Shown here: positions 44,616 through 45,489 of the stretch, in pieces | Layout: each line of letters starts with the position of its first letter | How positions within the stretch are numbered: position 1 is the first letter of the stretch | Source of the DNA: Escherichia phage PMBT16 | Sequence record: PP554575 | DNA: 64,000 nucleotides | Direction: 5' to 3' (one strand) | Notes under the pieces: model-generated | Told to the model about the DNA's origin: nothing | Databases searched by the model: none | What the model saw: the letters and a program-made list of their open reading frames with translations, nothing else | Program-made: the position numbers and the translations under genes

Positions 44616-45041
44616 ATGATCTATGAAATGCCAAAACTGATTCGTGACGATGCCCAAAACGCTCACACCATTATTATGGGCAAACGCATGGATATTATTT
44701 GTCATAAAGATTTCTGGGAAGGAAGTTACTTCACAGAGTATTTTGGTAAACTGGACAATGGTCTGCTGATCCAGTTCTACACCGATGCGGAAAACAACAT
44801 TCACTGGGAGTTCGAAACTGAAGATATCCATAAACTTTTCACCTTCCTCGGTATTAAGGTTGAGGCCAAGTTTGAAGAAGGTGAGTGCGACGATTGTGGA
44901 TTCTATGAGGTAACAGATTTCTACCTTCCAAGTGGTAAAAATCTCTACTACGAAAGCCACTTCGGCAACTCAAATATGCCACAGGGTTGGGATGAGTTTT
45001 TGGAAATTGCAGAAGAGGAGCTGGAATACCGTGATTATTGA
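44616..45041 (+). CDS. Hypothetical protein (141 aa)
   Basis: RBS GGAGAA; acidic. Confidence 0.45.
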   Translation: MIYEMPKLIRDDAQNAHTIIMGKRMDIICHKDFWEGSYFTEYFGKLDNGLLIQFYTDAENNIHWEFETEDIHKLFTFLGIKVEAKFEEGECDDCGFYEVTDFYLPSGKNLYYESHFGNSNMPQGWDEFLEIAEEELEYRDY

Positions 45042-45489
45042 TACTGTAAAGGGAGATCTAATCTCCATTTTCAAGAAAGGGTCAGGCCACATGATCCACG
45101 GTTGTAACTGCTTTCACACAATGGGTGCAGGTATAGCGAAAGATATTGCCCGTGAGTTCCCTCAAGCACTGGCAGCCGACAAAGAGACTGCTTATGGTAA
45201 TCTAGACAAGCTGGGTATGTTTTCTTGTTGGGAGCATTTTGCCAAGACCAGGGTCGTATATGGAATCAACCTGTATACCCAGTTCTACCCAGGGCCCAAT
45301 GCTGAATACTTCTCAATCATGAAAGGTTTTGAGCGAGTCAACGAGGTATTCAAAGGTATGTCATTGCCGTTCTACATTCCTAAAATCGGATGCGGTATTG
45401 GAGGTCTAAAGTGGGAACATGTAGAAGATGTAATTAATCTTGCAACCACAGATATTGATGTGGTTGTAGTAGAGTACAAAAAGTGTTGA
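45031..45489 (+). CDS. Macro-domain protein (ADP-ribose binding/hydrolase fold)
   Basis: GTG start overlapping upstream stop after GAGGAG; GDLISIF ... IHGCNCFHTMGAGIAKDIAREFP parallels the macro-domain N-terminal motif; IPKIGCGIGGL parallels the second glycine-rich loop. Confidence 0.6.
   Translation: MIIDTVKGDLISIFKKGSGHMIHGCNCFHTMGAGIAKDIAREFPQALAADKETAYGNLDKLGMFSCWEHFAKTRVVYGINLYTQFYPGPNAEYFSIMKGFERVNEVFKGMSLPFYIPKIGCGIGGLKWEHVEDVINLATTDIDVVVVEYKKC

What the first reader, a model, noticed from the sequence alone, without database searches (positions are those of the whole stretch)
45031..45489. Phage-encoded macro-domain protein, candidate ADP-ribosylation eraser or anti-defence factor
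The protein carries a macro-domain signature (GDLISIF ... IHGCNCFHTMGAGIAKDIAREFP and a second glycine loop IPKIGCGIGGL). Macro domains bind or hydrolyse ADP-ribose derivatives. In a phage this could reverse host ADP-ribosylation of DNA or proteins or degrade ADP-ribose-derived immune signals; this role is inference. No ADP-ribosyltransferase was recognised in the window.
Basis: partly seen in the sequence, partly recalled or inferred. Interest (0 to 1): 0.6.

Follow-up and report, generated by a model that had tools for sequence, protein, structure and literature searches.

The report
Phage macrodomain, T4 AdfM-like anti-DarT2 enzyme
This is a real 152-residue macrodomain gene of an rV5-like E. 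coli phage, a clear relative of phage T4 Tk.4/AdfM, so it most likely strips ADP-ribose off phage DNA to defeat the bacterial DarTG2 defence; the family is common and already described.

Summary
Window 45031-45489 (+) is a 152-aa ORF with the quoted motifs, annotated at the same coordinates in near-identical Vequintavirus genomes (99.6% to BASEL phage Bas55), in some as 'macro domain protein', 'phosphatase' or 'Poa1p-like'.

It is a full-length homologue of T4 Tk.4 (40% identity, E 1e-44) and 68% identical to Krischvirus Tk.4, which sits at the T4 tk.4 position. A 2025 preprint renamed T4 tk.4 adfM: deleting it sensitises T4 to DarTG2.

The residue at the catalytic-lysine position of DarG/TARG1 is an invariant Gln (Q84). 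SCO6735, a proven thymidine-ADP-ribose DNA hydrolase, has Gln there too, and Q85A kills it. His23, Asn26 and the GxG loop are also kept.

Best reading: an orphan-antitoxin-like enzyme that removes DarT2 ADP-ribose from thymidine in single-stranded phage DNA. No Vequintavirus copy has been tested on DarTG2 in the papers I found.

New here: the gene is a sharp divergence island (79% nt against 95-100% in flanks; dN/dS 0.11), which indicates allele replacement.

Verdict: a new member of a known kind, of low to moderate interest.

The parts
45031..45489 (+). CDS for a 152-aa single-domain macrodomain protein (GTG start, TGA stop); Vequintavirus homologue of T4 Tk.4/AdfM
   Evidence: ORF and translation; Pfam Macro, PHROG 335, DarG models; 40% identity to T4 Tk.4, E 1e-44; AF2 pLDDT 96.4, macro fold
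45013..45020 (+). Shine-Dalgarno-like AAGAGGAG, 10 nt upstream of the GTG start; lies inside the 3' end of upstream ORF 44616-45041, which suggests translational coupling
   Evidence: Read directly; ORF overlap
45097..45108 (+). Codons for H23-G24-C25-N26. N26 is the conserved macrodomain Asn (SCO6735 N27; N23 in PhiKZ AdfM). H23 equals SCO6735 H24 and the His mutated in the Poa1p H23A entry
   Evidence: N26 and G24 invariant, H23 at least 90%; alignment table; SCO6735 mutagenesis; PhiKZ AdfM Asn mutant
45121..45138 (+). Codons for M31-G32-A33-G34-I35-A36, the first glycine-rich ADP-ribose-binding loop
45268..45282 (+). Codons for N80-L81-Y82-T83-Q84 (NxYTQ motif). Q84 occupies the position of catalytic Lys in DarG (K80) and TARG1 (K84), and of the essential Gln85 in SCO6735
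   Evidence: N80, Y82, T83, Q84 invariant in 110 sequences; alignment to SCO6735, BT1257, TARG1, DarG; Q85A inactive
45379..45405 (+). Codons for P117-K-I-G120-C-G122-I-G-G125, the second glycine (phosphate-binding) loop. G124 sits where TARG1 has catalytic D125
44850..45470 (.). Divergence island centred on the macro gene: 75-87% nt identity to phage APECc02, against 95-100% in the flanking genes
   Evidence: sliding identity; gene 78.9% against flanks 95.3-100%; dS 1.07, dN 0.12, dN/dS 0.11; about 100 Vequintavirus records carry a 77-79% allele although the 3-kb region is mostly 90-99% identical

Best explanation
The gene encodes a stand-alone, catalytically competent macrodomain of the ALC1-like (TARG1/DarG/SCO6735/Poa1p) class. 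It belongs to the phage Tk.4 family that was named AdfM (anti-DarT factor Macrodomain) in T4. Proposed mechanism: when an E. coli host carrying a DarTG2 toxin-antitoxin system is infected, the DarT2 toxin ADP-ribosylates thymidines in single-stranded phage DNA and blocks replication. The phage enzyme binds the ADP-ribose through its two glycine loops and hydrolyses the thymidine-ribose bond, restoring normal DNA. Catalysis probably follows the SCO6735 route: Gln84, held in place by Asn26, positions the distal ribose and a water molecule. It does not use the Lys of DarG/TARG1. Shown here: the ORF, the macro fold, class membership, full-length homology to T4 Tk.4, and conservation of the residues that matter in SCO6735. 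Shown by others for homologues only: T4 tk.4 is required on DarTG2 hosts; SCO6735 and PhiKZ AdfM hydrolyse thymidine-linked ADP-ribose on DNA; the apparent Bas54 counterpart (matched by position and length, sequence not checked) is dispensable on K-12. Inferred: that this Vequintavirus protein has the same substrate and the same role.
Against: In the papers I searched, no Vequintavirus macrodomain has been tested on DarTG2 or on any substrate. Identity to the one genetically tested relative is only 40%, and T4 AdfM has no published biochemistry in the papers I could read. The two lysines that position DNA in SCO6735 (K34, K89) are not conserved: position 33 is Ala here, though it is Lys in the APECc02 allele. 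His23 and Thr30 align with the Poa1p residues whose mutants were crystallised (H23A, S30A), so a small-molecule phosphatase activity is not excluded by sequence. Macrodomains are often promiscuous: SCO6735 also acts on protein ADP-ribose.
Confidence: 0.7

Rival explanations
1. It is a small-molecule ADP-ribose-derivative hydrolase, either a Poa1p-like ADP-ribose-1''-phosphate phosphatase or an O-acetyl-ADP-ribose deacetylase. It would clean up by-products of NAD-dependent RNA repair or sirtuin reactions made by the phage itself.
Against: In NHEP1 that cluster lies about 50 kb from the macro gene, and by my coordinate mapping it falls outside this window. No Tpt1/KptA is annotated in the parts of related genomes that I read. 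In T4 the only phenotype reported for tk.4 is sensitivity to DarTG2. The 'phosphatase' labels are inherited annotation, not tests.
Confidence: 0.12
2. It reverses ADP-ribosylation of proteins or RNA rather than DNA. Examples are marks from host mRNA or protein ADP-ribosyltransferase defences (the CmdTAC type), or marks written by phage transferases.
For: TARG1 and SCO6735, both close structural relatives, remove protein-linked ADP-ribose. mRNA ADP-ribosylation is a known anti-phage mechanism in E. coli (PMC11618068).
Against: No ART was found next to the gene or annotated in the related records covering most of the window. The TARG1 Lys/Asp dyad used for Glu/Asp-linked protein ADP-ribose is absent: Q84 and G124 take those positions. 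T4, which carries tk.4, is still restricted by CmdTAC, so the family does not obviously counter that system.
Confidence: 0.1
3. It destroys or sequesters ADP-ribose-derived immune signals (Thoeris-type cyclic ADPR isomers or His-ADPR), or otherwise buffers NAD-depleting defences.
Confidence: 0.05
4. It acts mainly as a stoichiometric inhibitor that binds DarT2, mimicking the antitoxin, with hydrolysis being secondary. The allelic diversity would then track different DarT2 variants.
For: Catalytically dead SCO6735, DarG and TARG1 all inhibit DarT by interaction. The gene is a sharply bounded divergence island with several alleles. The substitutions between the two alleles compared are densest at residues 54-75 and leave the active-site motifs untouched.
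Against: The protein lacks the C-terminal DarT-binding domain of DarG2 (152 aa against a 329-338-position model). dN/dS is 0.11, so there is no sign of positive selection at the whole-gene level. Strict conservation of the catalytic residues argues that enzymatic function is under selection.
Confidence: 0.03

Closest known systems
Phage T4 Tk.4 = AdfM (anti-DarT factor Macrodomain), bioRxiv 10.1101/2025.11.20.689424
   Same: Single-domain phage macrodomain of about 152-155 aa. 40% identity and 67% positives end to end. Shared motifs HGCNCFHTMG(A/S)G, NLYTQFxPGPN and P(K/R)IGxGIG, including the invariant Gln. Non-essential on K-12, if bas54_0092 is the counterpart as its position and length suggest.
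   Different: Different genomic setting. T4 tk.4 lies between vs and tk, whereas this gene sits among small genes of unknown function downstream of the Vequintavirus polymerase and SSB-like genes. The anti-DarTG2 phenotype is shown for T4 only.
Krischvirus (RB49/JSE) Tk.4
   Same: 68% amino-acid and about 68% nucleotide identity, the closest relative outside Vequintavirus. JSE tk.4 is the positional orthologue of T4 tk.4.
   Different: A different phage family (Straboviridae). I found no functional test for it. The high similarity suggests lateral exchange between E. coli myoviruses.
Streptomyces coelicolor SCO6735 (PDB 5e3b) and Bacteroides BT1257 (2fg1/2afc)
   Different: Cellular, not viral. 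Only about 21-25% identity. They have a longer loop after the Gln, and the DNA-positioning Lys34/Lys89 are not conserved here.
DarG2 antitoxin of DarTG2 systems (PDB 5m3i, 5m31, 7omu)
   Different: DarG2 uses a catalytic Lys, carries a C-terminal DarT-binding domain and is encoded next to darT. None of these holds here.
PhiKZ gp104 AdfM (Cell Rep 2026, PMC13309987)
   Same: A phage-encoded stand-alone macrodomain shown to remove DarT2 ADP-ribose from DNA and to neutralise DarT2.
   Different: Only 21% identity, E 5e-4. It has the DarG-type FPTK lysine rather than Gln and is imported into the phage nucleus. This looks like a separate lineage that carries the same name.
Yeast Poa1p (PDB 6lfq-6lfu) and human TARG1/OARD1
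   Different: Poa1p is an ADP-ribose-1''-phosphate phosphatase in the tRNA-splicing by-product pathway. TARG1 uses a Lys84/Asp125 dyad on protein-linked ADP-ribose, and here those positions are Q84 and G124.

Membership tests
Macro domain superfamily (Pfam PF01661) | Profile match above the curated gathering score | tested here: met
   26 bits against a cut-off of 22, E 9.7e-6; 13 of the 16 PDB sequence hits are macrodomain entries by name or known identity
Macro domain superfamily (Pfam PF01661) | Three-layer alpha/beta/alpha macro fold | tested here: met
Macro domain superfamily (Pfam PF01661) | Two glycine-rich ADP-ribose/phosphate-binding loops and the conserved Asn | tested here: met
   N26, G32/G34 and G120/G122 are invariant or nearly so in 110 homologues and align with the same residues in SCO6735, DarG and TARG1
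ALC1-like class (TARG1/DarG/SCO6735/Poa1p) | Closest sequence and structure relatives belong to this class, clearly ahead of MacroD, viral X-domain and PARG types | tested here: met
T4 Tk.4 / AdfM family | Full-length homology to T4 Tk.4 with the family-specific motifs (HGCNCFHTMG, NxYTQ, PxIGxG) | tested here: met
   E 1e-44, 40% identity, 150 of 152 residues aligned; the tblastn hit in T4 is a single place (H43); invariant columns
T4 Tk.4 / AdfM family | Phage-encoded, single domain, no adjacent toxin | tested here: met
   The window is a Vequintavirus; the protein is 152 aa; neighbours have no ART or DarT match
T4 Tk.4 / AdfM family | Needed for phage growth on a DarTG2-expressing host | not testable with these tools
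   Shown for T4 only. The apparent Bas54 counterpart was shown only to be non-essential on K-12
T4 Tk.4 / AdfM family | Hydrolysis of thymidine-linked ADP-ribose on single-stranded DNA | not testable with these tools
   Biochemistry exists for SCO6735 and PhiKZ AdfM, not for this clade
DarG2 antitoxin (NCBIfam NF048014, PADLOC DarG) | Equivalog score cut-off, and the two-domain architecture with a C-terminal DarT-binding domain | tested here: not met
   46 bits against a cut-off of 250; only model positions 2-144 of 338 (3-143 of 329 in PADLOC) are matched
DarG2 antitoxin (NCBIfam NF048014, PADLOC DarG) | Catalytic lysine (K80 in T. aquaticus DarG) | tested here: not met
   Gln84 occupies this position
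DarG2 antitoxin (NCBIfam NF048014, PADLOC DarG) | Encoded next to a darT toxin gene | tested here: not met
   Flanking ORFs are PHROGs of unknown function with no relevant Pfam match
SCO6735-type orphan DNA ADP-ribosyl hydrolase | Gln at the catalytic-Lys position, positioned by the conserved Asn, plus the His and the GxG loop | tested here: met
   Q84, N26, H23 and G120/G122 align with Q85, N27, H24 and G126/G128
SCO6735-type orphan DNA ADP-ribosyl hydrolase | DNA-positioning lysines K34 and K89 | tested here: not met
   Position 33 is Ala (Lys in the APECc02 allele). The loop carrying K89 is shorter here
Poa1p-like ADP-ribose-1''-phosphate phosphatase | Residues equivalent to Poa1p H23 and S30 | tested here: inconclusive
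   H23 and T30 align with them, but H23 is also shared with SCO6735 and TARG1. The Poa1p structure paper was not available
Poa1p-like ADP-ribose-1''-phosphate phosphatase | Presence of a Tpt1/KptA pathway that makes the substrate | tested here: inconclusive
   None is annotated in the parts of related genomes that I read. A Sir2/RNA-ligase cluster is annotated in a relative at a position that maps outside the window
TARG1-type protein ADP-ribosyl hydrolase | Lys84/Asp125 catalytic dyad | tested here: not met
   Q84 and G124 occupy these positions

The most novel reading that the evidence does not exclude
The T4/Vequintavirus 'AdfM' clade is not a captured DarG2 antitoxin. It is a separate, Gln-dependent (SCO6735/BT1257-like) lineage that reached the same anti-DarT2 role independently of the Lys-type PhiKZ AdfM. 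The cassette-like allele replacement seen in Vequintaviruses would then reflect matching to different host DarT2 variants, for example through direct toxin binding on top of hydrolysis.
Probability: 0.2. Interest if true: 0.45.

Novelty: new member of a known kind. Interest (0 to 1): 0.25.

Why it matters
If the assignment holds, rV5-like phages carry a ready-made counter to DarTG2. These are broad-host-range E. coli myoviruses that are often considered for therapy and biocontrol. Homologues occur in 2,832 of 50,697 phage records, about 5.6%, which points to strong and widespread pressure from DNA ADP-ribosylation. The invariant Gln at the catalytic-Lys position in this clade, T4 AdfM included, gives an immediate mutagenesis target. 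It also suggests the SCO6735-type water-mediated mechanism, rather than the DarG mechanism, for the commonest phage macrodomain. The finding itself is otherwise ordinary: the gene is already annotated as a macrodomain, and its family function has been reported.

Tried and rejected
1. The longer ORF from GTG 44932 (185 aa). Rejected: it overlaps the upstream gene by 110 nt, and homologues start at the 45031-equivalent position.

2. A functional partner next to the gene (ART, NADAR, DarT). PHROG and Pfam scans of ten flanking ORFs gave only unknown-function families, one phage zinc-binding domain and an endonuclease VII-like protein.

3. Membership of DarG2 proper. Rejected on score, architecture, catalytic residue and gene context.

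4. Close kinship with PhiKZ AdfM. Rejected: 21% identity and a different catalytic residue.

5. A bacterial homologue next to a toxin. The Pelagimonas homologue P0065 sits in a housekeeping-looking context with no DarT.

6. Direct data for Vequintaviruses on DarTG2. None found. The AdfN paper tested only NADAR proteins, from Bas60-62 among others, and the HIDEN-SEQ preprint did not run Bas54 on DarTG2.

7. The Poa1p structure paper, to check catalytic residues. It is not in the library.

8. The search for 'AdfM' as a word was swamped by journal-abbreviation matches; only one relevant paper came up.

9. I did not use the large representative-protein search or the metagenome and genome scans. 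Family size and distribution were already clear.

Full report
**The observation.** The start is GTG at 45031. An AAGAGGAG ribosome-binding sequence lies at 45013-45020, and the start overlaps the stop codon of upstream ORF 44616-45041 by 11 nt. A longer in-frame reading from 44932 exists. I reject it because T4 and JSE homologues begin exactly at the 45031-equivalent residue, and because every related genome record annotates the 459-bp version.

**Where the window comes from.** It is an rV5-like E. coli myovirus of the genus Vequintavirus. The 3-kb region around the gene is 99.6% identical to BASEL phages JeffSchatz (Bas55) and JohannBauhin. In those two records the gene is 'hypothetical protein'. 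In slur12, slur16, JLBYU08, bov10K2 and others it is already called 'Macro domain protein', 'phosphatase' or 'Poa1p-like family protein'.

**Is it a macrodomain?** Yes.
- Pfam Macro scores 26 bits against a gathering score of 22, and PHROG 335 gives E 6e-60.
- The NCBIfam and PADLOC DarG models match their macrodomain part at E 4e-12 and 8e-13.
- An AlphaFold2 model built on 110 homologues has mean pLDDT 96.4 and pTM 0.91.
- A profile of the family finds BT1257, SCO6735, TARG1, DarG and Poa1p at E 6e-16 to 2e-12.

**Which macrodomain?** Translated search of 50,697 phage records finds a homologue in 2,832 of them. These include T4-like phages, where the gene is tk.4, and also Felixounavirus-, Pakpunavirus-, Kuttervirus-, Seunavirus- and KVP40-like phages.
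- BLASTP to T4 Tk.4 gives 40% identity and 67% positives over the whole length, E 1e-44.
- The closest relatives outside Vequintavirus are the Krischvirus (RB49/JSE) Tk.4 proteins, at 68% identity.
- JSE tk.4 lies in the same regB-vs.1-vs-tk.4...tk-rI order as T4 tk.4, so the chain of homology to T4 tk.4 is firm.

**What is known about the family.** A November 2025 preprint (10.1101/2025.11.20.689424) ran a T4 transposon library on a DarTG2-expressing host. It found tk.4 as the single conditionally essential gene, confirmed this with a clean knockout, and renamed the gene adfM, anti-DarT factor Macrodomain.
- Independently, PhiKZ gp104, also called AdfM, was shown to remove DarT2 ADP-ribose from DNA in vitro and to neutralise DarT2 (PMC13309987).
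- The same preprint mapped essentiality in the Vequintavirus Bas54. Gene bas54_0092 has the same 459-bp length and the same 11-nt overlap layout as the gene here. It took insertions at 31 of 31 TA sites and is classed non-essential on K-12. I matched it by position and length only and did not check its sequence. Bas54 was not run on DarTG2.
- I found no direct test of any Vequintavirus macrodomain.

**Catalytic residues.** In 110 family members the invariant positions are G24, N26, M31, G34, A36, D50, N80, Y82, T83, Q84, P117, G120 and G122. The profile-to-PDB alignments and a MAFFT alignment with reference sequences agree on four points.
- Q84 sits where DarG has K80, TARG1 has K84 and PhiKZ AdfM has its FPTK lysine. 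SCO6735 and BT1257 have Gln at that position.
- N26 equals SCO6735 N27.
- H23 equals SCO6735 H24.
- TARG1's second catalytic residue, D125, corresponds to G124 here.

The SCO6735 study (PMC9411070) showed that the enzyme hydrolyses thymidine-linked ADP-ribose on DNA and protects against DarT. Q85A abolishes activity, and N27S and G128E nearly abolish or substantially reduce it. The authors propose a water-mediated mechanism in which Gln positions the distal ribose. T4 AdfM has the same NLYTQ motif. The T4/Vequintavirus clade is therefore SCO6735-like in its active site, whereas PhiKZ AdfM (21% identity, E 5e-4) is DarG-like. The two proteins named AdfM look like separate lineages. The two SCO6735 lysines that position DNA (K34, K89) are not conserved here. 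That is the main residue-level caveat.

**Most likely mechanism.** The protein is an orphan-antitoxin-like enzyme. During infection of a DarTG2 host, DarT2 ADP-ribosylates thymidine in single-stranded phage DNA, and this macrodomain hydrolyses the adduct so that replication can continue. What I showed is the ORF, the fold, the class, the homology and the residue conservation. The phenotype and the chemistry are known only for homologues, so the substrate and role of this particular protein are inferred. I put 0.7 on this reading.

**Rivals.**
- A Poa1p-like small-molecule role (0.12). This is what the inherited 'phosphatase' labels imply. H23 and T30 align with the Poa1p residues mutated in PDB entries 6lfs and 6lft. 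A related Vequintavirus genome annotates a Sir2/RNA-ligase/pyrophosphohydrolase cluster, and Iyer et al. predict such a cluster in phage V5 to be NAD-linked RNA repair. Against it, that cluster is about 50 kb from the macro gene in that genome and maps outside this window, and T4's only reported tk.4 phenotype is on DarTG2.
- Protein or RNA de-ADP-ribosylation (0.1). The TARG1 dyad is missing. T4, which carries tk.4, is still restricted by CmdTAC.
- Destruction of Thoeris-type signals (0.05). Nothing specific supports it.
- A mainly stoichiometric DarT2 inhibitor (0.03). The absence of the DarG C-terminal domain and the strict conservation of catalytic residues argue against it.

**A new observation.** Against phage APECc02 the macro gene is 78.9% identical at the nucleotide level. 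The nine surrounding genes from 43837 to 46986 are 95.3-100% identical, and the drop begins in the last 200 nt of the upstream ORF and ends at the stop codon. Between the two alleles dS is 1.07, dN is 0.12 and dN/dS is 0.11. This is an old, purifying-selected allele brought in by recombination, not a fast-evolving or decaying gene. About 100 Vequintavirus records carry a 77-79% allele, although the 3-kb region is mostly 90-99% identical across records. Database clusters at 75-84% protein identity suggest several alleles. Differences are densest at residues 54-75 and spare the active-site motifs. One substitution, A33K, restores the SCO6735 K34-like lysine in the other allele. Mosaic replacement is common in phages, so this is suggestive of host-driven diversity and no more.

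**Context.** The gene lies in a long + strand block of small genes downstream of the helicase, methyltransferases, primase and DNA polymerase. All of the immediate neighbours belong to PHROGs of unknown function. Sigma-70-like promoter matches are enriched in 43000-48000 (21 against 11.4 +/- 3.2), and there is a strong terminator-like hairpin at 43790-43811. This would fit early transcription by the host polymerase, but it is weak evidence. A bacterial homologue (Pelagimonas, 41% identity) is stand-alone with no DarT beside it, as is SCO6735.

**Verdict.** The feature is an ordinary member of a very widespread and already annotated phage family whose function has recently been assigned. It counts as a new, untested member of a known kind. 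Interest is about 0.25. The modest extras are the SCO6735-type catalytic Gln shared with T4 AdfM and the allele-replacement island.

Noticed in passing
window 43196-43774 (+): A 192-aa endonuclease VII-like / HNH-related ORF (PHROG 1035, E 4.5e-34) is variably present among near-identical Vequintaviruses. It is annotated in slur16 and bov10K2, and a 'putative homing endonuclease' sits at the same place in Bas54. It is absent from JeffSchatz, JLBYU08 and APECc02, where the upstream 1227-bp gene abuts the next gene directly. This looks like a mobile homing endonuclease.
   Followed up: partly
window 47025-47350 (ORF 46983-47315, +): A second sharp divergence island against APECc02: 71-91% nt identity, against 95-99% just upstream. 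It lies in a 110-aa ORF of unknown function (PHROG 2531) with a hydrophobic N-terminal stretch.
   Followed up: no
window 45940-45967 (+): A perfect sigma-70 consensus promoter match (TTGACA, 16 nt, TATAAT) lies just upstream of ORF 45999-46190. Promoter-like sites are about twice as frequent as expected across 43000-48000.
   Followed up: no
window 43790-43811 (+): A strong intrinsic-terminator-like hairpin (9 pairs, 7 of them G-C, followed by a T run) lies right after the endonuclease VII-like ORF. It may mark the end of a transcription unit upstream of the block containing the macro gene.
   Followed up: no
window 45741-45935 (+): This 64-aa ORF carries a Pfam Phage_zn_bind_2 domain (E 7e-23). 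It was the only Pfam hit among the ten ORFs flanking the macro gene.
   Followed up: no
related genome L009 (PQ511146.1 NHEP1) about 14700-18550; by my coordinate mapping this falls outside the window: This Vequintavirus genome annotates a phosphoesterase, an ATPase, a T4-like RNA ligase, Sir2 and a nucleotide pyrophosphohydrolase side by side. Iyer et al. 2022 predict such a cluster in phage V5 to be an NAD-dependent RNA-repair system. It could produce ADP-ribose derivatives, which bears on the small-molecule rival for the macrodomain.
   Followed up: partly
public records MG065646-MG065689 ('Campylobacter phage' C2, C5, C15, D1, A141, A110a): Sixteen records labelled as Campylobacter jejuni phages match the 3-kb region, and those listed are about 96% identical to this E. 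coli Vequintavirus. The host labels look doubtful, perhaps through contamination or mis-assignment.
   Followed up: no
PMC11825919 (Bas60-62); not in this window: Other Vequintavirinae (Bas60-62) carry a NADAR protein, AdfN-Bas60, that counters DarTG1. That paper's DELTA-BLAST screen of the BASEL phages found NADARs only in Bas32, Bas33 and Bas60-62. Different members of the subfamily may therefore cover DarT1 and DarT2 with different erasers.
   Followed up: no
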